Source: Azolla caroliniana (lineage: Eukaryota > Plantae > Polypodiophyta). Taken from it: a DNA stretch of 64,000 nucleotides. Each line of letters begins with the position of its first letter. Within the stretch, counting starts at the first letter, position 1. Shown piece by piece: positions 10,810 to 46,454 of this stretch. Under the pieces are notes generated by a model. The model made no database searches and had not been told where the DNA came from. It worked only from the letters and a program-made list of their open reading frames with translations. Both the position numbers and the translations under genes were made by a program. The stretch covers positions 54,670 through 118,669 of the forward strand of contig JBHGNT010000074.1 in the NCBI GenBank assembly GCA_043228905.1, written 5' to 3'.

Positions 10810-13800
10810 AGACATGAAGAAATGCTCAAGTTAGAGGAGGGAGTTGAGAAGAGCCCATGAATAAATTAAAATGTTCGTACCTGGCCCATGTGATATCGGA
10901 TTTTAGTGTTCAAACATACGAATCGAAGCTAACAATGCTAGCTCTGATATGGAATTAAAAAATCAAGATTTTGAAACTCAGATCGACAGACATGAAGAAA
11001 TTACCAAATTTGAGGAGGGAGTTGGGAAGAGCGGGTCAATAAATTAAAATATTCATACCTGGCTCGGGTGATCCCGGATTTTAGTGTTCAAAGATGCGAA
11101 TCGAAGCTAACAACACTAGCTATGATATAAAATTAAAAAATCAAGATTTTGAAACTCAAGTCGAGAGACATGAAGAAATTCGCAAGTTATAGGAGGGAGT
11201 TGAGAAGAGCCCGTGAGTAATTTAAAATGTTCATACCTGGTCCATGTGATATCGGATTTTAGTCTTCAAACATGCGAATCGAAGCTAATAACGGTACCTA
11301 TAATATGGAATTAAAAAATGTGGATTTTAAAACTCAGATCGACAGACATGAAGAAATTACCAAATTTGAGGAGGGAGTTGAGAAGAGCGCGTCAGTATAT
11401 TAAAATATTCATACCTGGCTCGGGTGATCCCGGATTTTAGTGTTCAAAGATGCGAATCGAAGCTAAAAACACTAGCTATGATATGGAATTAAAAAATGTA
11501 GATTTTAAAACTCAAGTCGAGAGACATGAAGAAATTCGCAAGTTAGAGGAGGGAGTTGAGAAGAGCCCATGAGTAAATTAAAATGTTCATACCTGGTCCA
11601 TGTGATATCGGATTTCTATGTTCAAAGATGCGAATCGAAGGTAACAACGATAGCTCTGAAATGGACTTAAGAAATCAAAATTTTGAAACTCAGATCGATA
11701 GACATGAAGAAATTACCAAATTAGAGGAGGGAGTTGAGAAGAGCGCGTGAGTATATTAAAATGTTCATACCTGGCCTATGTGATATCGGATTTTCGTGTT
11801 CAAAGATGCGAATCGAAGCTAACAACGTTATCTATGAATTTGAATTAAAAAATCAATATTTTGAAAATCAAGTCGATAGACATGAAGAAATTCGCAAGTT
11901 AGAGGAGGGAGTTGAGAAGAGCCCGTGAGTAATTTAAAATGTTCATACCTGGCCCATGTGATATCGGATTTCTATGTTCAAAGATGCGAATCGAAGGTAA
12001 CAACGCTAGCTCTGATATGGAATTAAAAAATAAAGATTTTGAAACTCAGATCGATAGACATGAAGAAATTACCAAATTTGAGGAGGGAGTTGAGAAGAGC
12101 CCGTGAGTAATTTAAAATATTCATACCTGGCCCAGGTGATATCGGATTTTAGTGTTCAAAGATGTGAATCGAAGCTAACAACGCTAGCTCTGATATGGAA
12201 TTAAAAACTCAAGATTTTGAAACTCAGATCGACAGACATGAAGAAATTACCAAATTAGAGGAGGGAGTTGAGAAGAGCGCGTCAGTATATTAAAATCTTC
12301 ATACCTGGCCCATGTGATATCGGATTATAGTGTTCAAAGATGCGAATCGAAGGTAACAACACTAGCTATGATATGGAATTCAAAAATCAAGATCTTGAAA
12401 CTCATGTCGAGAGACATGAAGAAATGCTCAAGTTAGAGGAGGGAGTTGAGAAGAGCCCATGAATAAATTAAAATGTTCGTACCTGGCCCATGTGATATCG
12501 GATTTTAGTGTTCAAACATACGAATCGAAGCTAACAATGCTAGCTCTGATATGGAATTAAAAAATCAAGATTTTGAAACTCAGATCGACAGACATGAAGA
12601 AATTACCAAATTTGAGGAGGGAGTTGGGAAGAGCGGGTCAATAAATTAAAATATTCATACCTGGCTCGGGTGATCCCGGATTTTAGTGTTCAAAGATGCG
12701 AATCGAAGCTAACAACACTAGCTATGATATAAAATTAAAAAATCAAGATTTTGAAACTCAAGTCGAGAGACATGAAGAAATTCGCAAGTTAGAGGAGGGA
12801 GTTGAGAAGAGCCCGTGAGTAATTTAAAATGTTCATACCTGGTCCATGTGATATCGGATTTTAGTCTTCAAACATGCGAATCGAAGCTAATAACGGTACC
12901 TATAATATGGAATTAAAAAATGTGGATTTTAAAACTCAGATCGACAGACATGAAGAAATTACCAAATTTGAGGAGGGAGTTGAGAAGAGCGCGTCAGTAT
13001 ATTAAAATATTCATACCTGGCTCGGGTGATCCCGGATTTTAGTGTTCAAAGATGCGAATCGAAGCTAAAAACACTAGCTATGATATGGAATTAAAAAATG
13101 TAGATTTTAAAACTCAAGTCGAGAGACATGAAGAAATTCGCAAGTTAGAGGAGGGAGTTGAGAAGAGCCCATGAGTAAATTAAAATGTTCATACCTGGTC
13201 CATGTGATATCGGATTTCTATGTTCAAAGATGCGAATCGAAGGTAACAACGATAGCTCTGAAATGGACTTAAGAAATCAAAATTTTGAAACTCAGATCGA
13301 TAGACATGAAGAAATTACCAAATTAGAGGAGGGAGTTGAGAAGAGCGCGTGAGTATATTAAAATGTTCATACCTGGCCTATGTGATATCGGATTTTCGTG
13401 TTCAAAGATGCGAATCGAAGCTAACAACGTTATCTATGAATTTGAATTAAAAAATCAATATTTTGAAAATCAAGTCGATAGACATGAAGAAATTCGCAAG
13501 TTAGAGGAGGGAGTTGAGAAGAGCCCGTGAGTAATTTAAAATGTTCATACCTGGCCCATGTGATATCGGATTTCTATGTTCAAAGATGCGAATCGAAGGT
13601 AACAACGCTAGCTCTGATATGGATTTAAAAAATAAAGATTTTGAAACTCAGATCGATAGACATGAAGAAATTACCAAATTTGAGGAGGGAGTTGAGAAGA
13701 GCCCGTGAGTAATTTAAAATGTTCATACCTGGCCCAGGTGATATCGGATTTTAGTGTTCAAAGATGTGAATCGAAGCTAACAACGCTAGCTCTGATATGG

Positions 13801-16800
13801 AATTAAAAACTCAAGATTTTGAAACTCAGATCGACAGACATGAAGAAATTACCAAATTAGACGAGGGAGTTGAGAAGAGCGCGTCAGTATATTAAAATCT
13901 TCATACCTGGCCCATGTGATATCGGATTATAGTGTTCAAAGATGCGAATCGAAGGTAACAACACTAGCTATGATATGGAATTCAAAAATCAAGATCTTGA
14001 AACTCATGTCGAGAGACATGAAGAAATGCTCAAGTTAGAGGAGGGAGTTGAGAAGAGCCCATGAATAAATTAAAATGTTCGTACCTGGCCCATGTGATAT
14101 CGGATTTTAGTGTTCAAACATACGAATCGAAGCTAACAATGCTAGCTCTGATATGGAATTAAAAAATCAAGATTTTGAAACTCAGATCGACAGACATGAA
14201 GAAATTACCAAATTTGAGGAGGGAGTTGGGAAGAGCGGGTCAATAAATTAAAATATTCATACCTGGCTCGGGTGATCCCGGATTTTAGTGTTCAAAGATG
14301 CGAATCGAAGCTAACAACACTAGCTATGATATAAAATTAAAAAATCAAGATTTTGAAACTCAAGTCGAGAGACATGAAGAAATTCGCAAGTTATAGGAGG
14401 GAGTTGAGAAGAGCCCGTGAGTAATTTAAAATGTTCATACCTGGTCCATGTGATATCGGATTTTAGTCTTCAAACATGCGAATCGAAGCTAATAACGGTA
14501 CCTATAATATGGAATTAAAAAATGTGGATTTTAAAACTCAGATCGACAGACATGAAGAAATTACCAAATTTGAGGAGGGAGTTGAGAAGAGCGCGTCAGT
14601 ATATTAAAATATTCATACCTGGCTCGGGTGATCCCGGATTTTAGTGTTCAAAGATGCGAATCGAAGCTAAAAACACTAGCTATGATATGGAATTAAAAAA
14701 TGTAGATTTTAAAACTCAAGTCGAGAGACATGAAGAAATTCGCAAGTTAGAGGAGGGAGTTGAGAAGAGCCCATGAGTAAATTAAAATGTTCATACCTGG
14801 TCCATGTGATATCGGATTTCTATGTTCAAAGATGCGAATCGAAGGTAACAACGATAGCTCTGAAATGGACTTAAGAAATCAAAATTTTGAAACTCAGATC
14901 GATAGACATGAAGAAATTACCAAATTAGAGGAGGGAGTTGAGAAGAGCGCGTGAGTATATTAAAATGTTCATACCTGGCCTATGTGATATCGGATTTTCG
15001 TGTTCAAAGATGCGAATCGAAGCTAACAACGTTATCTATGAATTTGAATTAAAAAATCAATATTTTGAAAATCAAGTCGATAGACATGAAGAAATTCGCA
15101 AGTTAGAGGAGGGAGTTGAGAAGAGCCCGTGAGTAATTTAAAATGTTCATACCTGGCCCATGTGATATCGGATTTCTATGTTCAAAGATGCGAATCGAAG
15201 GTAACAACGCTAGCTCTGATATGGAATTAAAAAATAAAGATTTTGAAACTCAGATCGATAGACATGAAGAAATTACCAAATTTGAGGAGGGAGTTGAGAA
15301 GAGCCCGTGAGTAATTTAAAATGTTCATACCTGGCCCAGGTGATATCGGATTTTAGTGTTCAAAGATGTGAATCGAAGCTAACAACGCTAGCTCTGATAT
15401 GGAATTAAAAACTCAAGATTTTGAAACTCAGATCGACAGACATGAAGAAATTACCAAATTAGAGGAGGGAGTTGAGAAGAGCGCGTCAGTATATTAAAAT
15501 CTTCATACCTGGCCCATGTGATATCGGATTATAGTGTTCAAAGATGCGAATCGAAGGTAACAACACTAGCTATGATATGGAATTCAAAAATCAAGATCTT
15601 GAAACTCATGTCGAGAGACATGAAGAAATGCTCAAGTTAGAGGAGGGAGTTGAGAAGAGCCCATGAATAAATTAAAATGTTCGTACCTGGCCCATGTGAT
15701 ATCGGATTTTAGTGTTCAAACATACGAATCGAAGCTAACAATGCTAGCTCTGATATGGAATTAAAAAATCAAGATTTTGAAACTCAGATCGACAGACATG
15801 AAGAAATTACCAAATTTGAGGAGGGAGTTGGGAAGAGCGGGTCAATAAATTAAAATATTCATACCTGGCTCGGGTGATCCCGGATTTTAGTGTTCAAAGA
15901 TGCGAATCGAAGCTAACAACACTAGCTATGATATAAAATTAAAAAATCAAGATTTTGAAACTCAAGTCGAGAGACATGAAGAAATTCGCAAGTTAGAGGA
16001 GGGAGTTGAGAAGAGCCCGTGAGTAATTTAAAATGTTCATACCTGGTCCATGTGATATCGGATTTTAGTCTTCAAACATGCGAATCGAAGCTAATAACGG
16101 TACCTATAATATGGAATTAAAAAATGTGGATTTTAAAACTCAGATCGACAGACATGAAGAAATTACCAAATTTGAGGAGGGAGTTGAGAAGAGCGCGTCA
16201 GTATATTAAAATATTCATACCTGGCTCGGGTGATCCCGGATTTTAGTGTTCAAAGATGCGAATCGAAGCTAAAAACACTAGCTATGATATGGAATTAAAA
16301 AATGTAGATTTTAAAACTCAAGTCGAGAGACATGAAGAAATTCGCAAGTTAGAGGAGGGAGTTGAGAAGAGCCCATGAGTAAATTAAAATGTTCATACCT
16401 GGTCCATGTGATATCGGATTTCTATGTTCAAAGATGCGAATCGAAGGTAACAACGATAGCTCTGAAATGGACTTAAGAAATCAAAATTTTGAAACTCAGA
16501 TCGATAGACATGAAGAAATTACCAAATTAGAGGAGGGAGTTGAGAAGAGCGCGTGAGTATATTAAAATGTTCATACCTGGCCTATGTGATATCGGATTTT
16601 CGTGTTCAAAGATGCGAATCGAAGCTAACAACGTTATCTATGAATTTGAATTAAAAAATCAATATTTTGAAAATCAAGTCGATAGACATGAAGAAATTCG
16701 CAAGTTAGAGGAGGGAGTTGAGAAGAGCCCGTGAGTAATTTAAAATGTTCATACCTGGCCCATGTGATATCGGATTTCTATGTTCAAAGATGCGAATCGA

Positions 16801-19756
16801 AGGTAACAACGCTAGCTCTGATATGGATTTAAAAAATAAAGATTTTGAAACTCAGATCGATAGACATGAAGAAATTACCAAATTTGAGGAGGGAGTTGAG
16901 AAGAGCCCGTGAGTAATTTAAAATGTTCATACCTGGCCCAGGTGATATCGGATTTTAGTGTTCAAAGATGTGAATCGAAGCTAACAACGCTAGCTCTGAT
17001 ATGGAATTAAAAACTCAAGATTTTGAAACTCAGATCGACAGACATGAAGAAATTACCAAATTAGACGAGGGAGTTGAGAAGAGCGCGTCAGTATATTAAA
17101 ATCTTCATACCTGGCCCATGTGATATCGGATTATAGTGTTCAAAGATGCGAATCGAAGGTAACAACACTAGCTATGATATGGAATTCAAAAATCAAGATC
17201 TTGAAACTCATGTCGAGAGACATGAAGAAATGCTCAAGTTAGAGGAGGGAGTTGAGAAGAGCCCATGAATAAATTAAAATGTTCGTACCTGGCCCATGTG
17301 ATATCGGATTTTAGTGTTCAAACATACGAATCGAAGCTAACAATGCTAGCTCTGATATGGAATTAAAAAATCAAGATTTTGAAACTCAGATCGACAGACA
17401 TGAAGAAATTACCAAATTTGAGGAGGGAGTTGGGAAGAGCGGGTCAATAAATTAAAATATTCATACCTGGCTCGGGTGATCCCGGATTTTAGTGTTCAAA
17501 GATGCGAATCGAAGCTAACAACACTAGCTATGATATAAAATTAAAAAATCAAGATTTTGAAACTCAAGTCGAGAGACATGAAGAAATTCGCAAGTTATAG
17601 GAGGGAGTTGAGAAGAGCCCGTGAGTAATTTAAAATGTTCATACCTGGTCCATGTGATATCGGATTTTAGTCTTCAAACATGCGAATCGAAGCTAATAAC
17701 GGTACCTATAATATGGAATTAAAAAATGTGGATTTTAAAACTCAGATCGACAGACATGAAGAAATTACCAAATTTGAGGAGGGAGTTGAGAAGAGCGCGT
17801 CAGTATATTAAAATATTCATACCTGGCTCGGGTGATCCCGGATTTTAGTGTTCAAAGATGCGAATCGAAGCTAAAAACACTAGCTATGATATGGAATTAA
17901 AAAATGTAGATTTTAAAACTCAAGTCGAGAGACATGAAGAAATTCGCAAGTTAGAGGAGGGAGTTGAGAAGAGCCCATGAGTAAATTAAAATGTTCATAC
18001 CTGGTCCATGTGATATCGGATTTCTATGTTCAAAGATGCGAATCGAAGGTAACAACGATAGCTCTGAAATGGACTTAAGAAATCAAAATTTTGAAACTCA
18101 GATCGATAGACATGAAGAAATTACCAAATTAGAGGAGGGAGTTGAGAAGAGCGCGTGAGTATATTAAAATGTTCATACCTGGCCTATGTGATATTGGATT
18201 TTCGTGTTCAAAGATGCGAATCGAAGCTAACAACGTTATCTATGAATTTGAATTAAAAAATCAATATTTTGAAAATCAAGTCGATAGACATGAAGAAATT
18301 CGCAAGTTAGAGGAGGGAGTTGAGAAGAGCCCGTGAGTAATTTAAAATGTTCATACCTGGCCCATGTGATATCGGATTTCTATGTTCAAAGATGCGAATC
18401 GAAGGTAACAACGCTAGCTCTGATATGGAATTAAAAAATAAAGATTTTGAAACTCAGATCGATAGACATGAAGAAATTACCAAATTTGAGGAGGGAGTTG
18501 AGAAGAGCCCGTGAGTAATTTAAAATGTTCATACCTGGCCCAGGTGATATCGGATTTTAGTGTTCAAAGATGTGAATCGAAGCTAACAACGCTAGCTCTG
18601 ATATGGAATTAAAAACTCAAGATTTTGAAACTCAGATCGACAGACATGAAGAAATTACCAAATTAGAGGAGGGAGTTGAGAAGAGCGCGTCAGTATATTA
18701 AAATCTTCATACCTGGCCCATGTGATATCGGATTATAGTGTTCAAAGATGCGAATCGAAGGTAACAACACTAGCTATGATATGGAATTCAAAAATCAAGA
18801 TCTTGAAACTCATGTCGAGAGACATGAAGAAATGCTCAAGTTAGAGGAGGGAGTTGAGAAGAGCCCATGAATAAATTAAAATGTTCGTACCTGGCCCATG
18901 TGATATCGGATTTTAGTGTTCAAACATACGAATCGAAGCTAACAATGCTAGCTCTGATATGGAATTAAAAAATCAAGATTTTGAAACTCAGATCGACAGA
19001 CATGAAGAAATTACCAAATTTGAGGAGGGAGTTGGGAAGAGCGGGTCAATAAATTAAAATATTCATACCTGGCTCGGGTGATCCCGGATTTTAGTGTTCA
19101 AAGATGCGAATCGAAGCTAACAACACTAGCTATGATATAAAATTAAAAAATCAAGATTTTGAAACTCAAGTCGAGAGACATGAAGAAATTCGCAAGTTAG
19201 AGGAGGGAGTTGAGAAGAGCCCGTGAGTAATTTAAAATGTTCATACCTGGTCCATGTGATATCGGATTTTAGTCTTCAAACATGCGAATCGAAGCTAATA
19301 ACGGTACCTATAATATGGAATTAAAAAATGTGGATTTTAAAACTCAGATCGACAGACATGAAGAAATTACCAAATTTGAGGAGGGAGTTGAGAAGAGCGC
19401 GTCAGTATATTAAAATATTCATACCTGGCTCGGGTGATCCCGGATTTTAGTGTTCAAAGATGCGAATCGAAGCTAAAAACACTAGCTATGATATGGAATT
19501 AAAAAATGTAGATTTTAAAACTCAAGTCGAGAGACATGAAGAAATTCGCAAGTTAGAGGAGGGAGTTGAGAAGAGCCCATGAGTAAATTAAAATGTTCAT
19601 ACCTGGTCCATGTGATATCGGATTTCTATGTTCAAAGATGCGAATCGAAGGTAACAACGATAGCTCTGAAATGGACTTAAGAAATCAAAATTTTGAAACT
19701 CAGATCGATAGACATGAAGAAATTACCAAATTAGAGGAGGGAGTTGAGAAGAGCGC
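10810..19756 (+). repeat. 9-mer higher-order repeat (1,602 bp), about 5.6 near-identical units left of the insertion
   Basis: Identical pseudo-ORFs at 11734, 13336, 14938, 16540 and 18142 (spacing 1,602 = 9 x 178); diagnostic monomer variants recur at the same period. Confidence 0.95.
19753..19756. other. Target-site duplication, left copy (GCGC)
   Basis: The uninterrupted HOR monomer reads gaagagcgcgtgag; the left flank ends gaagagcgc and the right flank starts gcgcgtgag. HOR register confirms 4 bp: 19744+1602+7303+4 = 28653, the observed start of the next pseudo-ORF. Confidence 0.93.
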
Positions 19757-20547
19757 TGTCAAGTTATTACGCAAGTGCGTATGGAAACGAGGCGGGACCG
19801 CGGGGGTCTCGAACCAAAGAGCAAGCGAGGGAGGAGAAAGAGAGACAACCGGCTGCGCAGGACCGGGGACACACCGGGACACGGCCCTTCAGCACGGAGA
19901 ACGCGAACGATCCCCGACACAGACAGATGCGAATGACTAAATGTGTATATTGACAAAAACGGCTAACACGACTACAACCCTCGATGGGGCACAGGTTGGT
20001 TACACCCGAACAGGCCGGCGAACAGATGCCGATGCCTGTTCGCTTCGACGCACAAAGGGCAGCAGGTCGGAGGTGCTGCCGGAAGCACTCGGGCTTTCCT
20101 CGAAACAGCGCGAGCCTCCTCGGAACCCTGCGCAGAAAGCTATGGAGCTCAAGAAGGAAGGAAACAGAGAGAGAAGCGTCCAGAAACGGTCCGACAGCAC
20201 TTCCTCCTCCCTGTGCGAGATGTCTGCAATAGTTCTTTCCTGCTCCTTATATAGGCCGACGAGCAGGCCGTCACGTCAGCTTTATTCCCTGTCCCTTTTG
20301 GACAGGGATTCGCTTCGTCCTTCACGCATCCGCGTAGTTACGCCGCCGACTCGTACGGTTCCTTCGCTCGCTCGCGCGACCGAAAAGACTGTTCGCGCGG
20401 TCTTTGTCTCCACTTGTGATAGGGCCCGTTCCCGCCGATTATCCTCCTCCTTCGCTTCTATGTACAACTCGAAGCGTGCGCGCGTGAAGAACCGGCTCCC
20501 ACGCCTTGGTGCGCCGATTCCGCCTATGGACGGTTTTCTTCACGACA
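19757..20547 (-). repeat. 3' LTR (791 bp)
   Basis: Direct repeat of 26269..27059 (offset 6,512); + strand starts tgtcaag and ends cacgaca; adjacent to the PPT. Confidence 0.97.
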
Positions 20548-20560
20548 TCCGCCCCCACCT
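20548..20560 (-). other. Polypurine tract
   Basis: Minus strand AGGTGGGGGCGGA (11 of 13 purines) directly abuts the 3' LTR start TGTCGTG. Confidence 0.85.
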
Positions 20561-20618
20561 AACCGTGCATCCTCCGGTATGCACCAAGAGAGTTGGGACG
20601 GAGAAAACCGGCCCGTCT

Positions 20619-23600
20619 TCATTTCTCGCCCGTCGGTTCTTCCTCGTTTTCGGATCTTTCGTCACTGCTGACTAGGAGAGCTGGGTCGGGCTCGTCGTCG
20701 TGTCGCTTCTTGTATGCTTTGATCCGCTTCCCTGCAACCGGTATCGCCATCCTCGTGCCGTCTAGTTCCGCCAGGTGATATGTCCCGTTGTCATTGGCGC
20801 TCCGCACCACGTAAGGCCCGAACCACCTTCGCGCGAACTTCCGTGTAGCTCGGTGCTGGTTGTCGAGGCTGCTGTCGTAGACGAGCACCCAGTCACCTTC
20901 GTCGATTTTCTTCGGTCGGAGCCGGTGCGTTCGGTCGAACCGGGCTTTGTTCTTTGTCCTCGCCACCCGGAGCTTCTCCGTAGCCAGTGCCACGTCCTCC
21001 GGTCTCCGCTCGAGCTGTCGTATACGTGCGGCCAACAACTCCTCCCGGCTCATCTCGTCCCTCCAGTCGACCGTTGCCCACGAGGAGATCGTCCGTTCTA
21101 TCGGCATGATCGGCTTCTGGCCGAACATGAGCTCCGTCGGCATGTACCTGGTTACCGAACTGTGCGTGGTCCGGTCTGCCCACAAAGCATAAGGCAGCAG
21201 CCGCGGCCAGTTTCCGACTTGGCCTCCGCATGCCCGAACCAACGCCTTGACGATCGGTCCGTGTCCGCGCTCCACCTTTCCATTCGCCTCCGGATTGTAC
21301 GCAGTGGTGAGCGAGAGCTTGACTCCCAGCCGGTCGAACAGCTCCGCGGCTTCTTCGGCGTCCAACTCCCCTCGGTCAGCCACGATCTTCCCGACGCACC
21401 CGTACCGGCATATCACGTCCTCGATTAGGAACCGGCATACGGCCGCGGTCGTTTTGTTCGGAAGGGCCCGGCCTTCCACCTGGTTCGTCAGATTCTCCCG
21501 CGCTAGGACCAGGTACCGCATTTGTCCTACCCCCGTTGGCATCGTCACCAGATCTACCATCCATTTGAAGTGGATGGTCGGAGGGTACGTAGGGTGAAGC
21601 TCGTCCCGGTGTCGGACCACGGAGTGCATCTGACAGCTCTCGCAAGTTGTCACTAATCGGTGCACGTCCTGGTACAGTCCCGGCCACCAATACTTCCCCT
21701 TCAGTTTCTCAAACGTAGCCCACGTTCCACGGTGTCCAGCCCAAGGGCTGTCGTGGTAGGCCGTCAGCAGCTCCTCCTGTTCTTCCTTCATCGCCACCAC
21801 CCGGAGCGGAGCGCCGTCCCTCTTCCTCGGGTGTTTCCATAGGCAGCCATCCCGGAGAAAGAACCGGTACGCTTTCTTCCGGATCCTGTTGGCCTCGTCC
21901 TTCGTCCATGACGCATCGGGCGTCATTGTCTTCAAAAACCCGCCGATCTGCAGCCACTCCCCGTCGTACTTGCTCGCGTCGAACTCGTTAAGCGCCGGAG
22001 TGCTCCTCCCGTCGGTCGTTATGTACGCCGCCTCGAAGAAATCCACGCCGACTTCTTCGTCTTCCGAAACCATGCCGCCCTCGTCGTCGAACCTCGCCCT
22101 CGAAAGCATGTCGGCCATGGCGTTGTCTTTCCCGGAAATGTGTCGTATTTCCGGGTCCAGGGACTTGATGTACGCTATCCACCTGAGCATCGCCAGGTCC
22201 GGAGTCGCGCATCCGGAAACCATACCGAGAATCGGCAGGCAATCCGTCTCGATGATCACTTCCGTCCCTATCAGGTAGTCTTTGTCGGCCTTAACCGCCG
22301 AAACAATACCCCAGAGTTCGCGTTTAACCTGGGCGTATCCTCGCTGCCGTTCACTGAGGACTTTCGCGCCGAATCGGATCGGAAACCGATTGCCGTCCTC
22401 GTCTTCCTGGTTCACGACCCATCCGATCCCGGTCGGACTGGTATCCACCGTTATGAATACCGGGGTACCCTTCCCGTAAACCGCCTTCCGGATTGCCGGT
22501 GCCGCTGCAAGGGCCTCTTTCAGCTTCCGGACCGATTCCGCGTGCTTGTCTAGCCATTCGAACCTTCGCCCCTTTTTCAGCAACCCGTACAGTGGCTCCG
22601 CGACGTGTGCGTAATGCGGGATCCATATGTGGTAGAACGCGCATGCCCCCAGGAATCTCCGTACTTCCGTGACCGAGCTGCAGTCGGGCTTCATCGCGGA
22701 GATGGCTTCTACCTTTGCCGGAGACGGTTTCCGGCCATATGGTCCGCACAGGTGTCCGACCACCATGATTTCTGACTGCCCGAAGGCCGACTTCTCCCCG
22801 GAGAAGGTGAGTCCCGCATCCTCTAGCCTTCGTAGCACCTTCTCGCAGTCGTCGACGTGCGTCGCCACGAATCGCCGGCATCCGTCCGGCCCGATCGTCT
22901 CGTCCCTTTCTTCCACCGGGCATCCCTTGATCGGGATGTCGTCCAGAAACGGCATGGTGATGTCCGGGATACAGTCCCTCAGAACCTTGTTCATCGCATT
23001 CACCATGTGGGCCACCGAGTTGGTCCCTCCCTGCGGCAGTGTACACATCCGAACTAGGCCGAGGGGAGTTCGCATCGTCGTAATGTCTCTGCTCTCCACG
23101 GCTAGCTGGAACTGGTCGTACCCTGAGTATAGATCCCCGACCGAGTAAATTGACCTTCCGGCGAAGGCCTCCGCGAATTCGTCTATGGTCGGTCCGATCC
23201 CTGCGTTCCGAATGGTCACTCGATTGACCGGCTGCAGGTCCTGGATGAAGCGCAACGAACCGTTTTTCTTCGGTACGGTAAACCAGCGGTTTGAATACGG
23301 GGCGCTCGATGGCTCGAGAATGCCCATATCAACCTTCTGCCTCAGCAGCTCCATCAACTTCGGGATGTGAGCTCTCGGAACCGGGATTGGCTTGAGATTC
23401 CATGGTACATGCGGTACCGTGAATATCACCATCGGCTCCACGATCGTCGGGTCAACGCACCCGATTTCCTCCGGCGAGAATGCGAAGGCTTTCCCGTGCC
23501 TTCCGAGCATTCTCCGAAACCGGTCTTCCTCCGCCGGCAGTAGGAACCCGCCCCCACCGATTTTGAGCTCTCGGAGCGTCTCGTCAGTGAAGGTGTGCCC

Positions 23601-24101
23601 TATGCAGGCCGGATCTCGTAGACTAGGGTCCGATGCAACCCCTTTGATTCTCGACGCGCTGTCCTCCGGTAAGGGTGCCGCTACTGGCCTTACCTTCCGG
23701 TCCACAGTCTTGTACTTGGTGTTTACGTGGGCCGTCCGAACTGACTCGAGCCCTCGACCGAAGTCCGCGATGACTTCGTACATCTCCTCGGAACACACCG
23801 GTATCGTCCGGTCTTCGTTAAGGTCCTCTTCGACTACCTTTCCCATCATTCCCAAGGTGTCGTCGAAGGAGACTGCCTCTACGGCTCCGTTGATTTCTTC
23901 GTCAGGGCCGAGAACTCCGCACGCTCGAAGTCTCCCCTCCGTCTTTGTTTTCTCTCGGCCGGCGATGCCGACCATCGTACATGCTCCGCTGTCGGAGAAG
24001 CAAAATGTCCTACCTATTGTACACGGTTCTCTCGTACAGATGTGGGGTTTTCCCGGAGCGTCCGGACTGTCGCGGCCCCACGCCTTGGCAGTCCTCTCTA
24101 A
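20619..24101 (-). CDS. pol: Pol ORF: reverse transcriptase - RNase H - integrase (first ATG at 23975, but the frame is open back to the frameshift site)
   Basis: RT motifs GDLYSGYDQ, LPQG, FLDD (22938..22949); RNase H VDTSPTGIG, KRELWGI, ETDC, ADMLSR; integrase HHCC (YHDSPWAGHRG...CESC), D-D-E (MVDLV, VADRG, KVERGH) and GPY/F module (WFGPYVV). No stop codon between 24110 and the ATG at 23975 in this frame. Confidence 0.96.
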   Translation of the reverse strand, partial: LERTAKAWGRDSPDAPGKPHICTREPCTIGRTFCFSDSGACTMVGIAGREKTKTEGRLRACGVLGPDEEINGAVEAVSFDDTLGMMGKVVEEDLNEDRTIPVCSEEMYEVIADFGRGLESVRTAHVNTKYKTVDRKVRPVAAPLPEDSASRIKGVASDPSLRDPACIGHTFTDETLRELKIGGGGFLLPAEEDRFRRMLGRHGKAFAFSPEEIGCVDPTIVEPMVIFTVPHVPWNLKPIPVPRAHIPKLMELLRQKVDMGILEPSSAPYSNRWFTVPKKNGSLRFIQDLQPVNRVTIRNAGIGPTIDEFAEAFAGRSIYSVGDLYSGYDQFQLAVESRDITTMRTPLGLVRMCTLPQGGTNSVAHMVNAMNKVLRDCIPDITMPFLDDIPIKGCPVEERDETIGPDGCRRFVATHVDDCEKVLRRLEDAGLTFSGEKSAFGQSEIMVVGHLCGPYGRKPSPAKVEAISAMKPDCSSVTEVRRFLGACAFYHIWIPHYAHVAEPLYGLLKKGRRFEWLDKHAESVRKLKEALAAAPAIRKAVYGKGTPVFITVDTSPTGIGWVVNQEDEDGNRFPIRFGAKVLSERQRGYAQVKRELWGIVSAVKADKDYLIGTEVIIETDCLPILGMVSGCATPDLAMLRWIAYIKSLDPEIRHISGKDNAMADMLSRARFDDEGGMVSEDEEVGVDFFEAAYITTDGRSTPALNEFDASKYDGEWLQIGGFLKTMTPDASWTKDEANRIRKKAYRFFLRDGCLWKHPRKRDGAPLRVVAMKEEQEELLTAYHDSPWAGHRGTWATFEKLKGKYWWPGLYQDVHRLVTTCESCQMHSVVRHRDELHPTYPPTIHFKWMVDLVTMPTGVGQMRYLVLARENLTNQVEGRALPNKTTAAVCRFLIEDVICRYGCVGKIVADRGELDAEEAAELFDRLGVKLSLTTAYNPEANGKVERGHGPIVKALVRACGGQVGNWPRLLPYALWADRTTHSSVTRYMPTELMFGQKPIMPIERTISSWATVDWRDEMSREELLAARIRQLERRPEDVALATEKLRVARTKNKARFDRTHRLRPKKIDEGDWVLVYDSSLDNQHRATRKFARRWFGPYVVRSANDNGTYHLAELDGTRMAIPVAGKRIKAYKKRHDDEPDPALLVSSDERSENEEEPTGEK

Positions 24102-24107
24102 AAATCC
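24042..24107 (-). promoter_or_regulatory. Predicted -1 programmed ribosomal frameshift signal (slippery heptamer plus stem-loop/pseudoknot)
   Basis: G_GAT_TTT (24107..24101) directly precedes the ORF1 stop TAG; 6-nt spacer; stem GGACTG (24094..24089)/CAGTCC (24069..24064); loop GTGGGG (24081..24076) complementary to CCCCAC (24047..24042); pol is in the -1 frame. Confidence 0.82.
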
Positions 24108-26224
24108 TCTCGGTTTTCGGAACCGAGGGAGTCGCGGTTACGTTCGTGGTTCGGCCGTACCGTCAGAAACTGGACCGAATGGCGCCCGTCTTGGCTTTTG
24201 ACCCTCGCGTAGGCCGAACCATTGTCCAACACCTTGGTCTCCATCCGCGCCGCCGTGATGTACGGCTCTCCCAGTATGACCGGATGCGAAGACGTCTCCT
24301 GGACGAAGAAGTGCTGGTCAATCTCGACGTCGCCGATCTTGACTCGCACATTCGGACAGGCCCCGTGCAGTTCCTCGGTGGCGCGCGTTGCTGCCCTTAT
24401 TTTCCACCCGTGCTTGGTGTTGATCGGCCATTTGCCCTTCTTATAGAAGTCCATGGACATCAAATTGATCTCCGATCCGTGGTCCACCAAAGCTATCACC
24501 GGTTCCTGGACATCGCCGATCTTCACCGGGGTTTCCGTGGTCGCTCGGGCCCAGTGTGGTCTCGAATAGTGGCTTTCCGCCCACTCGTCTCCCAGCGCCA
24601 TGTCGTCTAGGTGCGTTGTCCGCACTTCCACCGGTCTTTCCGGTTCGGTCTCCGTTGACAGCCTCTTCCGTTTCACCAAGTCCACGATGGAGTCGTGGAA
24701 CTCTTTCTTGGCGATTCCCAGCACCTCTCGTAACGACAGCTCCACCTTGCTGTCGAGGATTCGTTCCTCCAGGACCTTTCGTAAGTCCGTGGTCCTTTCT
24801 ATCTCCGTCCCCAGACGGTACCCGCCCTTCTGGGGTTTATCTTGCGTACCGGCCCCGCCGGCTTCGTCCCGTCGCGGCCCGGACCGGGTCTCGTATCGTT
24901 GTGAGGGCCCGATCGTCCCGGGTTTCCCCACCCGCTTCTCTTCTACCAGAGCCTCGTAGTTCTGGCAAGCGGCTTCCACGAAGCCCGTCTTTTCCTCGAC
25001 CGGGTCGCTCCACCCGGTCATCTCCCGTACCCGTTTCTCCGCACGGTCCGATTCCTCCCCTCTAAGCCCTGCACCGGCAAGGCCTTCTAGCATCGTCGGC
25101 CAGAATCCGGCTTTGCTTTCCTTTCGGCCCTCGCCGCCCCCGACTCGAATGCCGGCCGACGCCGAGTAGTGGACGGTTTCCGCGTGTCGGGCCGCCGCCT
25201 CTTCCATCAACCTTTTCATACCACCACGCCCGTCGTTTCGGCTCAGGGCCCTTCGGGTGTCGCTGGCATGCACCCGTCCTTCCCACAGGTACACCACCCT
25301 GTTCCTCAGCGCCTCCGCGAAGTCGCCGCAGTCCTTCCGAATGTGGCCGACTTCGTCGCACCACATGCACCTGTTTCCTGCCGCCGGCCGTCGGTCACGA
25401 GCCGGTTCGCCTCCTTCCCTTCGGGCCTGCGCGATTTGGAGGTCCTTTATCGCCTTCGTCAATTCCTCCAGCGCCGCTCCTCCGGTTGAGCCTCTGACTA
25501 CGCCGGTCGAAGCCGAACCCGTTTCCAACCATTCTCGGGTCTCTTCCTTTCGCACCTGTGGCGCTGGTTCGAGTTTCCTTGCTGCGACCGAGCCCGACCC
25601 GGTTGCCCCGTTATCCGCCCATTCTCGCCGTTTGTCGAAACGGCCACAGACCTTCCTGACAGCCGCCCAGTCGGTAGTGAGCCCGTCTTCGGTTTCCAGC
25701 AAGAGGCCCACTTGCTCCCGATCCCGCTCGTCGACCGTCTTGACAAACAGTAAGACCCGGCTCGTGTCCAGGATGGTACGGTCGAGCGCCGAAAGGCGCG
25801 CAAAGTTTTCCTCGAACTCCCGGAGGAGTGCCGACGCGTTTCTTCCCTTCCCCGGGGATTCCACCCATTCCATGAACCTTCGCTTCGAAAGCCGGAGCGC
25901 GTCGTCCAGCCCGTATTTCTCTAGGAGACGACCTTCGAACTCTTCCCAGGTACGGCTCTCCGCCCGCACCTCGAGCACCTCCGCATGGATGCTCGGCATC
26001 GCCACTCGGGGAAATCCGGCAAGACGCCTTTCTTCCGGAATGTCCCGCATCAGCATTTCTGCACCGTAGGACGCCAGATACTTCGTGGCATCCCTCCCAT
26101 CGAACCGGCCGATCGTGCCGACGACCGCCTCAATAGCTCTGTCGAGGGCACCGGTGCCCTCGCGCGCGTTTACAATCCGATCCACGGCCGAAGCCATGGC
26201 CTCTGCAAGATCCGACCCCCTCAT
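24098..26224 (-). CDS. gag: Gag-protease polyprotein (ORF1)
   Basis: CCHC zinc knuckle CMWCDEVGHIRKDC (25328..25369); retropepsin-like ALVDHGSEINLM (DHG at 24476..24484) and VILGEPY. The ORF track starts at a GTG inside the PBS (26251); the first ATG is at 26224. Confidence 0.92.
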   Translation of the reverse strand: MRGSDLAEAMASAVDRIVNAREGTGALDRAIEAVVGTIGRFDGRDATKYLASYGAEMLMRDIPEERRLAGFPRVAMPSIHAEVLEVRAESRTWEEFEGRLLEKYGLDDALRLSKRRFMEWVESPGKGRNASALLREFEENFARLSALDRTILDTSRVLLFVKTVDERDREQVGLLLETEDGLTTDWAAVRKVCGRFDKRREWADNGATGSGSVAARKLEPAPQVRKEETREWLETGSASTGVVRGSTGGAALEELTKAIKDLQIAQARREGGEPARDRRPAAGNRCMWCDEVGHIRKDCGDFAEALRNRVVYLWEGRVHASDTRRALSRNDGRGGMKRLMEEAAARHAETVHYSASAGIRVGGGEGRKESKAGFWPTMLEGLAGAGLRGEESDRAEKRVREMTGWSDPVEEKTGFVEAACQNYEALVEEKRVGKPGTIGPSQRYETRSGPRRDEAGGAGTQDKPQKGGYRLGTEIERTTDLRKVLEERILDSKVELSLREVLGIAKKEFHDSIVDLVKRKRLSTETEPERPVEVRTTHLDDMALGDEWAESHYSRPHWARATTETPVKIGDVQEPVIALVDHGSEINLMSMDFYKKGKWPINTKHGWKIRAATRATEELHGACPNVRVKIGDVEIDQHFFVQETSSHPVILGEPYITAARMETKVLDNGSAYARVKSQDGRHSVQFLTVRPNHERNRDSLGSENREDF

Positions 26225-26246
26225 CTTCTGCTCTTCTGCCGCCTCC

Positions 26247-26264
26247 TTCACGTCGGGTTCACCA
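26247..26264 (-). other. Primer-binding site complementary to tRNA-Trp
   Basis: Minus strand TGGTGAACCCGACGTGAA, 4 nt after the 5' LTR. The + strand TTCACGTCGGGTTCACCA matches the 3' end of plant cytosolic tRNA-Trp(CCA) as I recall it, and is close to the avian sarcoma-leukosis virus Trp PBS TGGTGACCCCGACGTGAT. Confidence 0.88.
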
Positions 26265-26268
26265 AAGA

Positions 26269-27059
26269 TGTCAAGTTATTACGCAAGTGCGTATGGAAAC
26301 GAGGCGGGACCGCGGGGGTCTCGAACCAAAGAGCAAGCGAGGGAGGAGAAAGAGAGACAACCGGCTGCGCAGGACCGGGGACACACCGGGACACGGCCCT
26401 TCAGCACGGAGAACGCGAACGATCCCCGACACAGACAGATGCGAATGACTAAATGTGTATATTGACAAAAACGGCTAACACGACTACAACCCTCGATGGG
26501 GCACAGGTTGGTTACACCCGAACAGGCCGGCGAACAGATGCCGATGCCTGTTCGCTTCGACGCACAAAGGGCAGCAGGTCGGAGGTGCTGCCGGAAGCAC
26601 TCGGGCTTTCCTCGAAACAGCGCGAGCCTCCTAGGAACCCTGCGCAGAAAGCTATGGAGCTCAAGAAGGAAGGAAACAGAGAGAGAAGCGTCCAGAAACG
26701 GTCCGACAGCACTTCGTCCTCCCTGTGCGAGATGTCTGCAATAGTTCTTTCCTGCTCCTTATATAGGCCGACGAGCAGGCCGTCACGTCAGCTTTATTCC
26801 CTGTCCCTTTTGGACAGGGATTCGCTTCGTCCTTCACGCATCCGCGTAGTTACGCCGCCGACTCGTACGGTTCCTTCGCTCGCGCGCGCGACCGAAAAGA
26901 CTGTTCGCGCGGTCTTTGTCTCCACTTGTGTTAGGGCCCGTTCCCGCCGATTATCCTCCTCCTTCGCTTCTATGTACAACTCGAAGCGTGCGCGCGTGAA
27001 GAACCGGCTCCCACGCCTTGGTGCGCCGATTCCGCCTATGGACGGTTTTCTTCACGACA
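26269..27059 (-). repeat. 5' LTR (791 bp)
   Basis: Direct repeat of 19757..20547 with 4 substitutions seen; followed on the minus strand by the PBS and gag. Confidence 0.97.
26759..26790 (-). promoter_or_regulatory. Probable LTR promoter: TATA box and upstream TGACGT (bZIP-type) motif
   Basis: Minus strand cc-TATATAA-gg at 26765..26759, about 295 nt into the LTR; TGACGTGA at 26790..26783. The same motifs occur in the 3' LTR at 20247..20278. Confidence 0.65.
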
Positions 27060-27063
27060 GCGC
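27060..27063. other. Target-site duplication, right copy (GCGC)
   Basis: Immediately follows the LTR end ...cacgaca; matches 19753..19756. Confidence 0.93.
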
Positions 27064-29523
27064 GTGAGTATATTAAAATGTTCATACCTGGCCTATGTGA
27101 TATCGGATTTTCGTGTTCAAAGATGTGAATCGAAGCTAACAACGTTATCTATGAATTTGAATTAAAAAATCAATATTTTGAAAATCAAGTCGATAGACAT
27201 GAAGAAATTCGCAAGTTAGAGGAGGGAGTTGAGAAGAGCCCGTGAGTAATTTAAAATGTTCATACCTGGCCCATGTGATATCGGATTTCTATGTTCAAAG
27301 ATGCGAATCGAAGGTAACAACGCTAGCTCTGATATGGAATTAAAAAATAAAGATTTTGAAACTCAGATCGATAGACATGAAGAAATTACCAAATTTGAGG
27401 AGGGAGTTGAGAAGAGCCCGTGAGTAATTTAAAATGTTCATACCTGGCCCAGGTGATATCGGATTTTAGTGTTCAAAGATGTGAATCGAAGCTAACAACG
27501 CTAGCTCTGATATGGAATTAAAAACTCAAGATTTTGAAACTCAGATCGACAGACATGAAGAAATTACCAAATTAGAGGAGGGAGTTGAGAAGAGCGCGTC
27601 AGTATATTAAAATCTTCATACCTGGCCCATGTGATATCGGATTATAGTGTTCAAAGATGCGAATCGAAGGTAACAACACTAGCTATGATATGGAATTCAA
27701 AAATCAAGATCTTGAAACTCATGTCGAGAGACATGAAGAAATGCTCAAGTTAGAGGAGGGAGTTGAGAAGAGCCCATGAATAAATTAAAATGTTCGTACC
27801 TGGCCCATGTGATATCGGATTTTAGTGTTCAAACATACGAATCGAAGCTAACAATGCTAGCTCTGATATGGAATTAAAAAATCAAGATTTTGAAACTCAG
27901 ATCGACAAACATGAAGAAATTACCAAATTTGAGGAGGGAGTTGGGAAGAGCAGGTCAATAAATTAAAATATTCATACCTGGCTCGGGTGATCCCGGATTT
28001 TAGTGTTCAAAGATGCGAATCGAAGCTAACAACACTAGCTATGATATAAAATTAAAAAATCAAGATTTTGAAACTCAAGTCGAGAGACATGAAGAAATTC
28101 GCAAGTTAGAGGAGGGAGTTGAGAAGAGCCCGTGAGTAATTTAAAATGTTCATACCTGGTCCATGTGATATCGGATTTTAGTCTTCAAACATGCGAATCG
28201 AAGCTAATAACGGTACCTATAATATGGAATTAAAAAATGTGGATTTTAAAACTCAGATCAACAGACATGAAGAAATTACCAAATTTGAGGAGGGAGTTGA
28301 GAAGAGCGCGTGAGTATATTAAAATATTCATACCTGGCTCGGGTGATCCCGGATTTTAGTGTTCAAAGATGCGAATCGAAGCTAAAAACACTAGCTATGA
28401 TATGGAATTAAAAAATGTAGATTTTAAAACTCAAGTCGAGAGACATGAAGAAATTCGCAAGTTAGAGGAGGGAGTTGAGAAGAGCCCATGAGTAAATTAA
28501 AATGTTCATACCTGGTCCATGTGATATCGGATTTCTATGTTCAAAGATGCGAATCGAAGGTAACAACGATAGCTCTGAAATGGACTTAAGAAATCAAAAT
28601 TTTGAAACTCAGATCGATAGACATGAAGAAATTACCAAATTAGAGGAGGGAGTTGAGAAGAGCGCGTAAGTATATTAAAATGTTCATACCTGGCCTATGT
28701 GATATCGGATTTTCGTGTTCAAAGATGCGAATCGAAGCTAACAACGTTATCTATGAATTTGAATTAAAAAATCAATATTTTGAAAATCAAGTCGATAGAC
28801 ATGAAGAAATTCGCAAGTTAGAGGAGGGAGTTGAGAAGAGCCCGTGAGTAATTTAAAATGTTCATACCTGGCCCATGTGATATCGGATTTCTATGTTCAA
28901 AGATGCGAATCGAAGGTAACAACGCTAGCTCTGATATGGAATTAAAAAATAAAGATTTTGAAACTCAGATCGATAGACATGAAGAAATTACCAAATTTGA
29001 GGAGGGAGTTGAGAAGAGCCCGTGAGTAATTTAAAATGTTCATACCTGGCCCAGGTGATATCGGATTTTAGTGTTCAAAGATGTGAATCGAAGCTAACAA
29101 CGCTAGCTCTGATATGGAATTAAAAACTCAAGATTTTGAAACTCAGATCGACAGACATGAAGAAATTACCAAATTAGAGGAGGGAGTTGAGAAGAGCGCG
29201 TCAGTATATTAAAATCTTCATACCTGGCCCATGTGATATCGGATTATAGTGTTCAAAGATGCGAATCGAAGGTAACAACACTAGCTATGATATGGAATTC
29301 AAAAATCAAGATCTTGAAACTCATGTCGAGAGACATGAAGAAATGCTCAAGTTAGAGGAGGGAGTTGAGAAGAGCCCATGAATAAATTAAAATGTTCGTA
29401 CCTGGCCCATGTGATATCGGATTTTAGTGTTCAAACATACGAATCGAAGCTAACAATGCTAGCTCTGATATGGAATTAAAAAATCAAGATTTTGAAACTC
29501 AGATCGACAGACATGAAGAAATT
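27064..29523 (+). repeat. 9-mer higher-order repeat, about 1.5 units right of the insertion
   Basis: Same ordered monomer variants as 10810..19756; pseudo-ORF copy at 28653. Confidence 0.93.
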
Positions 29524-30639
29524 CGCAAGTTAGAGGAGGGAGTTGAGAAGAGCCCGTGAGTAAATTAAAATGTTCATACCTGGCCCATGTGATATCGGAT
29601 TTTAGTGTTCAAAGATGCGAATCGAAGGTAACATCGCTAGCTCTGATATGAAATTAAAAAATCAAGATTTTGAAACTCAGATCGACAGACATGAGGAAAT
29701 TACCAAATTAGAGGAGGGAGTTGAGAAGAGCCCGTGAGTAAATTAAAATGTTCATACCTAGCCCATGTGATATCGGATTTTAGTGTTCAAAGATGGGAAT
29801 CGAAGGTAACAACGCTGGCTCTGATATGGAATTAAAAAATCAAGATTTTGAATCTCAGATCAACTGACATGAACAAATATCCAAATTAGAGGAGGGAGTT
29901 GAGAAGAGCGCGTCAGTATATTAAAATCTTCATACCTGGCCCATGTGATATCGGATTTTAGTGTTCAAAGATACAAATCGAAGCTAACAACGCTATCTAT
30001 GATATGGAATTAAAAAATCAAGATCTTGAAACTCATGTCGAGAGACATAAAGAAATGCTCAAGTTAGAGGAGGGAGTTGAGAAGAGCCCGTGAGTAAATT
30101 AAAATGTTCATACCTGGCCCATGTGATATCGGATTTTAGTGTTCAAATATGCGAATCGAAGGTAACAACGCTAGCTCTGATATGAAATTAAAAAATCAAG
30201 ATTTTGAAACTCAGATCGACAGACATGAGGAAATTACCAAATTAGAGGAGGGAGTTGAGAAGAGCGTATCAGTATATTAAAATCTTCATACCTGGCCCAT
30301 GTGATATCGGATTTTAGTGTTCAAAGATGCGAATCGAACGTAACAACACTAGCTATGATATGGAATTAAAAAATCAAGATCTTGAAACTCATGTCGAGAG
30401 ACATGAAGAAATGCTCAAGTTAGAGGAGGGAGTTGAGAAGAGCCCGTGAGTAAATTAAAATGTTCATACCTGGCCCATGTGATATCGGATTTTTGTGTTC
30501 AAAGATGCGAATCAAAGCTAACAATACTAGCTATGATATGGAATTCTAAAATGTTGATTTTAAAACTCAAGTCGAGAGACATGAAGAAATTCGCAAGTTA
30601 GAGGAGGGAGTTGAGAAGAGCCCGTGAGTAAATTAAAAT

Positions 30640-31900
30640 GTTCATACCTGGCTCGGGTGATACCGGATTTTTGTCTTCAAAGATGCGAATCGAAGCTAAC
30701 AACACTAGCTATTATATGGAATTAAAAAATCAAGATTTTGAAACTCAAGTTGAGAGACATGAAGAAATTCGCAGGTTAGAGGAGGCAGTTGAAAAGAGCC
30801 CATGAGTAAATTAAAATGTTCATACCTGGCCCATGTGATATCGGATTTTTGTGTTCAAAGATGCGAATCAAAGCTAACAACACTAGCTATGATATGGAAT
30901 TCTAAAATGTAGATTTTAAAACTCAAGTCGAGAGACATGAAGAAATTCGCAAGTTAGAGGAGGGAGTTGAGAAGAGCCCGTGATTAATTTAAAATGTTCA
31001 TACCTGGCCCATGTGATATCGGATTTTAGTGTTCAAACATGTGAATCGAAGCTAACAATACTAGCTATGATATGGAATTCTAAAATGTTGATTTTAAAAC
31101 TCAAGTCGAGAGACATGAAGAAATTCGCAAGTTAGAGGAGGGAGTTGAGAAGAGCCCATGAGTAAATTAAAATGTTCATACCTGGCTCGGGTGATACCGG
31201 ATTTTTGTGTTCAAAGATGCGAATCGAAGCTAACAACACTAGCTATTATATGGAATTAAAAAATCAAGATTTTGAAACTCAAGTTGAGAGACATGAAGAA
31301 ATTCGCAGGTTAGAGGAGGCAGTTGAAAAGAGCCCATGAGTAAATTAAAATGTTCATACCTGGCCCATGTGATATCGGATTTTAGTGTTCAAGGATGCAA
31401 ATCGAAGCTAACAACGCTATCTATGAATTTGAATTAAAAAATCAAGATTTTGAAACTCAAGTCGATATACATGAAAAAATTCGCAAGTTAGAGGAGGGAG
31501 TTGAGAAGAGCCCGTGAATAATTCAAAATGTTTATACCTGGCCCATATGATATCGGATTTTAGAGTTCAAAGATGCGAATCGAAGCTAACAACGCTAGCT
31601 CTGATATGGAATTAAAAAATGTAGATTTTAAAACTCAAGTCGAGAGACATGAAGAAATTCGCAAGTTAGAGGAGGGAGTTGAGAAGAGCCCATGAGTAAA
31701 TTAAAATGTTCATACCTGGCTCGGGTGATACCGGATTTTTGTGTTCAAAGATGCGAATCGAAGCTAACAACACTAGCTATTATATGGAATTAAAAAATCA
31801 AGATTTTGAAACTCAAGTTGAGAGACATGAAGAAATTCGCAGGTTAGAGGAGGCAGTTGAAAAGAGCCCATGAGTAAATTAAAATGTTCATACCTGGCCC
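30640..31900 (+). repeat. Local 3-mer (534-bp) periodicity
   Basis: The variant gcaggttagaggaggcagttgaaaagag recurs with gcagtt at 30785, 31319 and 31853. Confidence 0.75.
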
Positions 31901-46058: not shown

Positions 46059-46454
46059 CAAATTTGAGGAGGGAGTTGAGAAGAGCGGGTCAGTAAATTA
46101 AAATGTTCATACCTGGCTCGGGTGATCCCGGATTTTTGTATTCAAAGATGCGAATCGAAGCTAACAACACTAGCTATGATATGCAATTAAAAAATCAAGA
46201 TTTTGAAACTCAAGTCGAGAGACATGAAGAAATTCGCAAGTTAGAGGAGGGAGTTGAGAAGAGCCCGTCAGTACATTAAAATGTTCATACCTGGCCCATG
46301 TGATATCGGATTTTTGTGTTCAAAGATGCGAATCGAAGGTAACAACGCTAGCTCTGATATGGAATTAAAAAATCGAGATTTTGAAACTCAGATTGACAGA
46401 CATGAAGAAATTACCAAAATAGAGGGGGGAGTTGAGAAGAGCGCGTCAGTATAT

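What the first reader, a model, noticed from the sequence alone, without database searches (positions are those of the whole stretch)
19753..27063. Candidate new centrophilic retrotransposon: an intact, chromodomain-less gypsy element inside the most homogeneous satellite HOR
Seen: a complete element with uninterrupted ORFs and ~99.5% identical LTRs lies within the near-perfect 9-mer HOR, and its integrase ends after the GPY/F module in a short acidic tail (HDDEPDPALLVSSDERSENEEEPTGEK). Known: described plant centromere-associated LTR elements are CRM chromoviruses (CR motif), ATHILA, and some copia elements (ALE/Tal1, moss RLC5), and highly homogenised HORs often mark CENH3 chromatin. Inference: the Trp PBS, 4-bp TSD, FLDD RT and DHG protease fit none of these and resemble bryophyte/fungal-type non-chromovirus gypsy elements (Phygy-like, from memory). 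This could be an undescribed satellite-plus-retroelement centromere system, possibly in a non-seed plant. A single insertion cannot prove targeting.
Basis: partly seen in the sequence, partly recalled or inferred. Interest (0 to 1): 0.8.

Follow-up and report, generated by a model that had tools for sequence, protein, structure and literature searches.

The report
Phygy-like retrotransposon in a satellite array
An intact, young jumping gene with the hallmarks of the known moss 'Phygy' group sits in a 178-base tandem repeat of what is likely a seedless plant; it likely landed there because it inserts at CG sites, which the repeat is rich in, and nothing found shows that it homes in on centromeres.

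Summary
A 7,303-bp Ty3/gypsy element (minus strand, 791-bp LTRs with 4 mismatches, TSD GCGC, open gag-PR and pol frames, no chromodomain) is the only interruption of a 178-bp satellite. It lies in unit 6 of a 7-unit 9-mer HOR.

It is not a new kind of element. A 4-bp NCGN TSD, tRNA-Trp PBS and no extra domain are the published Phygy profile; the tree test against REXdb could not be run. The acidic integrase tail is lineage-wide (91 of 100 homologues, 27 of 29 from Riccia).

Targeting is unsupported. The 9-mer HOR covers 20% of the window's satellite, so landing there is unremarkable. In one organism that carries the family, LTR ends adjoin non-satellite DNA and the satellite is barely laid. 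CENH3 targeting by this subfamily is not excluded (about 15%), and Phygy enrichment in predicted liverwort centromeres is already reported. Whether the satellite is centromeric is untested. No earlier scan note on this element or satellite came up.

The parts
19753..19756 (.). Target-site duplication GCGC, left copy (NCGN)
19757..20547 (-). 3' LTR, 791 bp
20548..20560 (-). Purine-rich tract next to the 3' LTR (11 of 13 purines), likely the PPT
   Evidence: function inferred
20619..24137 (-). pol frame, 1,172 aa: RT (FLDD), RNase H, integrase (H2C2, rve, GPY/F), 27-aa acidic tail; no chromodomain, no second RNase H
24098..24137 (-). gag-PR/pol overlap with G-GAT-TTT just before the gag stop and a downstream hairpin; predicted -1 frameshift site
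   Evidence: 7 of 8 full-length Gag homologues end in Asp-Phe at the same place; frameshifting inferred
24098..26224 (-). gag-protease ORF, 708 aa from the first ATG: CCHC knuckle, DUF4100, DHG protease motif
26247..26264 (-). Primer-binding site, 4 nt inside the 5' LTR end; assigned to tRNA-Trp from recall
   Evidence: tRNA identity recalled, not tested by a call
26269..27059 (-). 5' LTR, 791 bp, TATA-like box about 295 nt in
27060..27063 (.). Target-site duplication GCGC, right copy
10793..29528 (+). 9-mer HOR (1,602-bp period, 7.1 units, 0.29% mean divergence) that the element interrupts in unit 6
1..64000 (+). 178-bp satellite, one orientation, 37% GC, 88% mean pairwise monomer identity, 6.2 CG per monomer; the element is its only interruption of 25 bp or more

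Best explanation
This is an intact, recently inserted Ty3/gypsy retrotransposon with the structural profile of the Phygy lineage, and it likely entered the satellite through that lineage's ordinary preference for CG-centred (NCGN) sites, not through centromere targeting. Shown: anatomy, open frames, the GCGC TSD, insertion into a pre-existing HOR monomer, CG richness of the satellite, and the lineage-wide acidic tail. Inferred: transcription from the 5' LTR; Gag-PR made by default and Gag-PR-RT-RH-IN by a -1 frameshift at G-GAT-TTT; tRNA-Trp and PPT priming; a 4-bp staggered cut centred on CG. The copy looks young because the family is likely active and satellite arrays likely turn over fast.
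For: REXdb table: Phygy has a 4-bp TSD (100%, NCGN), tRNA-Trp PBS (81%) and no extra domain; Phygy is the only lineage with a TSD sequence preference. The TSD here is GCGC; a random 4-mer of this satellite is NCGN with probability 0.035. The satellite has 6.2 CG per monomer, CpG o/e 1.07. Acidic 10-60 aa tail in 91 of 100 homologues that have the GPY/F and GKR motifs (20 of 120 lacked them and were dropped), including 27 of 29 from Riccia. The element nests among Riccia-containing clades in an RT-RH tree of 112 sequences. In run X14 (organism C), contigs carry the LTR start next to letters that do not fit the satellite (records 9 and 11); a 15-contig loose-end row ends in ACGT, again NCGN, before the LTR; summed contig depth is up to 6.2e5 on the LTR but at most 335 on the satellite, against about 2e6 in X1 and X4 (contig depth is not copy number). 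One insertion in 56.7 kb; the 9-mer HOR is 20% of it.
Against: One copy only, and no genome to map others. Organism C may have another centromeric repeat, so its flanks do not exclude CENH3 targeting. This LTR differs at many sites from nearly all contigs laid (table 3), so the runs may sample sister subfamilies. In Arabidopsis one R/K change in the integrase C-terminus switches targeting (PMC11735389 passages), so a shared tail does not exclude it. Phygy domains are reported enriched in predicted Apopellia centromeres. Length 7,303 bp is just under the Phygy range of 7,656-9,968. Placement in Phygy by tree was not tested.
Confidence: 0.65

Rival explanations
1. This subfamily is centrophilic: the 178-bp array is the CENH3 centromere and the integrase C-terminal region steers insertion to it, as in Tal1.
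For: A young intact element in a nucleosome-length satellite with near-perfect HORs. LTR divergence (0.51%, 95% CI 0.14-1.29%) and HOR divergence (0.29%) are of the same order. Single-residue switches are known. Phygy enrichment in predicted liverwort centromeres is reported. Diverse lineages invade satellite arrays (atlas passages).
Against: n = 1, with no nested copies, solo LTRs or fragments in 56.7 kb. The element is at the HOR's edge. Its tail is like that of its relatives. Rough contig depths give about 10-40 satellite monomers per family copy in X1, X4 and X5, against about 320 in the window (not copy numbers), so most family copies would have to lie elsewhere or in far more invaded arrays.
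Confidence: 0.15
2. The family has a mild bias towards CG-rich, gene-poor heterochromatin (satellites and other retrotransposons), by insertion or by retention, without recognising CENH3.
For: In Physcomitrella, Phygy inserted in Tcn1 was the commonest repeated nested pair (PMC6911290 passages). In Apopellia several gypsy lineages are enriched together at predicted centromeres. NCGN preference and a CG-rich satellite.
Against: No chromodomain or other reader module. No distribution data for this genome. It is hard to separate from the best explanation.
Confidence: 0.18
3. The element-in-HOR arrangement is an assembly artefact.
For: The region is very repetitive, and no public contig laid spans the junction.
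Against: Exact 4-bp TSD in HOR register; the empty site matches the neighbouring unit at 798 of 800 bases; the LTRs differ at 4 sites; both frames are open.
Confidence: 0.02

Closest known systems
Phygy, non-chromovirus Ty3/gypsy (Neumann et al. 2019, PMC6317226; passages and supplement 3 read, 5 supplements searched)
   Same: 4-bp NCGN TSD, tRNA-Trp PBS, no chromodomain, no aRH, no extra ORF, coding sequence filling the internal part
   Different: 7.3 kb against 7.7-10.0 kb; Phygy was defined from Physcomitrella only; gene order is 'ND' there and gag-PR overlapping RT-RH-INT here; the reference FASTA was too large to read, so the tree test is missing
Riccia sorocarpa and R. fluitans gypsy polyproteins
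   Same: Up to 64% identity over pol; DUF4100 Gag, CCHC knuckle, DHG or DTG protease, FLDD/FVDD RT, acidic tail
   Different: Closer unnamed relatives exist (pol 77-82%, Gag 96%); chromosomal positions in Riccia were not available
TatI
   Same: 4-bp TSD, tRNA-Trp PBS
   Different: TatI has an added aRH in 100% of members; none detected here
Tal1/ALE4 of Arabidopsis (PMC11735389, passages)
   Same: Intact LTR element without chromodomain in a 178-bp satellite
   Different: Copia superfamily; targeting shown by de novo insertions and domain swaps; nothing like that here
Apopellia endiviifolia predicted centromeres (PMC12885004, passages and section 21)
   Same: Phygy domains enriched in predicted centromeres of a liverwort
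   Different: In silico only, several lineages enriched together, no targeting test
RLC5/Bryco copia clusters of moss centromeres and the Marchantia 162-bp satellite (PMC7466625 passages; as cited in PMC12885004; atlas 10.64898/2026.09.17.752431 passages)
   Same: Seedless-plant centromere context
   Different: Mosses mostly have transposon-cluster centromeres (9 of 11 bryophytes in the atlas); here a long HOR-bearing satellite holds one gypsy element

Membership tests
Ty3/gypsy | Order GAG-PR-RT-RH-INT between LTRs | tested here: met
   best PDB match Ty3 Gag-Pol, E 3e-51
Phygy | RT/RH/INT group with REXdb Phygy references | not testable with these tools
   Reference FASTA too large to read; no Physcomitrella-named homologue
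Phygy | 4-bp TSD of NCGN type | tested here: met
   GCGC; profile
Phygy | tRNA-Trp PBS | tested here: inconclusive
   PBS located; its match to plant tRNA-Trp is recalled, not from a call
Phygy | No chromodomain, aRH or extra ORF | tested here: met
   Pfam at E<=0.1; about 58 nt between pol stop and PPT
Phygy | Size 7,656-9,968 bp (descriptive; the paper calls size of little value for classification) | tested here: not met
   7,303 bp
CRM and other chromoviruses | Chromodomain or CR motif after integrase; mostly 5-bp TSD and tRNA-Met | tested here: not met
   27-aa acidic tail only; 4-bp TSD
Athila | 5-bp TSD, tRNA-Asp PBS, often a 3' extra ORF | tested here: not met
TatI | Additional archaeal-type RNase H | tested here: not met
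   One RNase H only
Centrophilic retrotransposons | Copies enriched in CENH3 arrays genome-wide | tested here: inconclusive
   No genome; public contigs give only weak, indirect evidence
Centrophilic retrotransposons | De novo insertions follow CENH3 through the integrase C-terminus | not testable with these tools
   Needs experiment (standard set)
Centromeric satellite | CENH3 occupancy; one array per chromosome | not testable with these tools
   Only length, HORs and abundance are suggestive

The most novel reading that the evidence does not exclude
The 178-bp HOR array is the functional centromere of a seedless plant, possibly a fern, and a young Phygy subfamily has evolved CENH3 targeting without a chromodomain. 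That would be an independent centrophilic gypsy lineage and a satellite-plus-retroelement centromere outside seed plants.
Probability: 0.13. Interest if true: 0.62.

Novelty: new member of a known kind. Interest (0 to 1): 0.3.

Why it matters
As it stands, this is a clean, intact Phygy-like element outside Physcomitrella, useful for studying CG-site integration and a conserved -1 overlap after the protease. The satellite may matter more: HOR-bearing arrays look uncommon in seedless plants (9 of 11 bryophytes in the atlas have transposon-cluster centromeres, and the atlas sampled no ferns), so it is a ready CENH3 candidate. If the subfamily proved centrophilic, it would add another convergent origin of centromere targeting, a pattern already known from several lineages.

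Tried and rejected
No genome is held, so copies could not be mapped.

A scan of metagenome contigs for the 19-nt LTR end gave 1 match, with no similarity to the window beyond about 21 bases; rejected as chance.

Joint search on 19600-19850 in X1, X4 and X14 (2,857, 2,064 and 461 contigs laid): all 8 joint rows were satellite-to-satellite, none satellite-to-LTR. This is weak: junction contigs are short, single-copy junctions may not assemble, insertions in the same register show no joint, and only 18 of 223 loose-end rows were shown. In one search, 15 of 727 joint rows were shown, none satellite-to-LTR.

The ESM Atlas gave no result. The search of longer proteins gave only 7 distant arthropod hits. 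No tRNA genes in the window. No clear 10-bp AA/TT/TA period in the satellite. The frameshift hairpin (-21.6 kcal/mol) had no shuffle control.

Rejected ideas: the acidic tail as a special adaptation (lineage-wide); the gag/pol overlap as damage (conserved Gag end); a tRNA copy at the PPT as noted for other families of this genome (this element has a purine tract).

Paper searches found no report of this satellite or of tested Phygy centromere targeting; the library lacks most subscription papers, and the atlas preprint's supplements could not be seen and may list bryophyte satellites. Scan look-ups by sequence, by place nearby and by words found no note on this element or satellite.
Full report
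Observation. The whole window is a 178-bp satellite in one orientation (316 anchors, none on the minus strand). It has a single interruption of 25 bp or more, at about 19,755-27,058. That interruption is a 7,303-bp LTR retrotransposon on the minus strand. Its LTRs are 19757-20547 and 26269-27059, 791 bp each, TGT...ACA, with 4 mismatches. GCGC flanks both ends, and the empty site matches the HOR unit 1,602 bp upstream at 798 of 800 bases. The element therefore inserted into an existing HOR monomer.

Coding parts. Gag-PR (725 aa stop to stop, 708 from the first ATG) and pol (1,172 aa) are open. Pfam finds DUF4100 in the first and RT, RNase H, integrase H2C2 and rve in the second, with no chromodomain and no second RNase H at E<=0.1. 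The best solved relative is Ty3 Gag-Pol. The frames overlap in -1 register at G-GAT-TTT just before the gag stop, followed by a predicted hairpin (no shuffle control). Of 13 Gag homologues, 8 are full length; 7 end in Asp-Phe and 1 in Gly-Phe. The overlap is thus conserved and likely a programmed frameshift (inferred; GGAUUUU as a slippery site is recalled). A PBS starts 4 nt inside the 5' LTR end; its match to plant tRNA-Trp is recalled. A purine-rich tract abuts the 3' LTR.

The HOR. The 9-mer HOR spans about 10,793-29,528, with 7.1 units and 0.29% mean pairwise divergence; the element is in unit 6. LTR divergence is 0.51% (95% CI 0.14-1.29%), the same order, so the two cannot be ranked by age. 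The HOR is 20% of the window's satellite, and 40% of satellite bases have a near-identical copy within 6 kb. For one insertion this position is unremarkable. Elements in satellite arrays are younger on average across many genomes (atlas passages), so youth does not show targeting either.

What it is. In the REXdb summary table (PMC6317226, supplement 3) Phygy has a 4-bp TSD in 100% of 186 elements, of NCGN type, a tRNA-Trp PBS in 81%, no extra domain, and 7,656-9,968 bp. The text names Phygy as the only lineage with a TSD sequence preference. This element fits all but size. TatI shares the TSD length and PBS but always has an aRH, which is absent here. CRM and Athila fail on TSD, PBS and C-terminus. 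The defining tree test could not be run because the reference FASTA was unreadable, so I call it Phygy-like. Of 255 pol homologues at E<=1e-30, 120 were listed; all 36 that name an organism are Riccia. Among 20 more distant representatives looked up, the 6 that name an organism are also Riccia. In an RT-RH tree of 112 sequences (111 hits aligned over 400 aa or more, plus the query) it nests among Riccia-containing clades, nearest to unnamed ENA proteins. The host is likely a seedless plant; earlier scan notes suggest a fern, which I did not test.

The tail. Of 120 homologues, 100 keep the GPY/F and GKR motifs. Of these, 91 end in a 10-60 aa tail with at least 30% Asp/Glu, including 27 of 29 from Riccia. 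The tail, the FLDD/FVDD motif and the DHG protease are lineage traits. This does not exclude targeting, since one R/K change redirects Tal1 (PMC11735389 passages).

Targeting. No genome is held, so I laid public contigs. The family is very abundant in all 4 runs laid (36,753-47,357 contigs each). In X14 (organism C), contigs carry the LTR start beside letters that do not fit the satellite, and a 15-contig loose-end row ends in ACGT before the LTR, again NCGN. Summed depth there is up to 6.2e5 on the LTR and at most 335 on the satellite, against about 2e6 in X1 and X4. In X1, X4 and X5 depths suggest roughly 10-40 monomers per family copy, against about 320 in the window. The tool warns that contig depth is not copy number, and the two organism-A runs differ several-fold, so only the contrast with X14 is large enough to lean on. 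Two limits remain: organism C may use another centromeric repeat, and the window's LTR differs from nearly all laid contigs at many sites, so these may be sister subfamilies.

How it most likely works. An active Phygy-like family is likely transcribed from its 5' LTR, makes Pol by frameshifting, primes with tRNA-Trp and the PPT, and integrates with a 4-bp stagger around a CG. The satellite offers 6.2 CG per monomer (CpG o/e 1.07), and GCGC occurs at this register in 69 of 269 full-length monomers. One copy landing here needs no centromere-specific mechanism. I put this at 0.65, a general heterochromatin bias at 0.18, CENH3 targeting at 0.15 and artefact at 0.02.

What is known. Phygy domains are reported enriched in predicted centromeres of Apopellia, together with Tat and Selgy (section 21 read). 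Phygy nests in Tcn1 in Physcomitrella (passages). Moss centromeres are marked by RLC5/Bryco copia (passages), and Marchantia has a 162-bp satellite (as cited). The centromere atlas lists many centrophilic lineages, does not mention Phygy or ferns in its main text, and finds transposon-type centromeres in 9 of 11 bryophytes (passages; supplements not seen). A putative retrotransposon centromere is suggested for Ceratopteris (PMC12415947 passages). PMC13469084 (passages) added nothing specific. Ten paper searches found no description of this satellite or a test of Phygy targeting.

Verdict. The feature is real and well preserved, and it is a new member of a known kind. The centrophilic claim rests on one insertion and is unsupported but not excluded. 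The HOR-bearing satellite is the better lead. Interest 0.3.

Noticed in passing
window 1-64000: The 178-bp satellite is very abundant in organisms A and B but barely laid in organism C, which shares the retrotransposon family; this suggests fast satellite turnover between related species. A candidate centromeric repeat in a likely seedless plant.
   Followed up: partly
window 10793-18802: HOR units 2 and 4 are identical and units 3 and 5 differ at 1 site, showing an 18-monomer duplication on top of the 9-mer.
   Followed up: partly
window about 46300-48200, 56100-58400, 31300-37200: Further local HORs: a 10-mer pair, 5- and 6-mer near-perfect repeats, and a roughly 25-mer marked by a 165-bp monomer.
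   Followed up: no
LTR positions 365, 448, 616, 663 (from 19757 and 26269): All 4 LTR mismatches are transversions; neither element (CpG o/e 1.20) nor satellite (1.07) is CpG-depleted, which is unexpected for long-methylated plant repeats.
   Followed up: no
window 24441-24490 region of gag-PR: The protease motif is DHG in 9 of 13 Gag homologues and in 4 of 7 Riccia proteins checked (2 have DTG), an unusual but conserved aspartic-protease variant.
   Followed up: partly
window about 4100-8700 and 42400-45900: Two stretches share a similar run of 179-bp and 182-bp monomer variants and lower identity to neighbours, possibly an older layer or a duplication bracketing the younger core.
   Followed up: no
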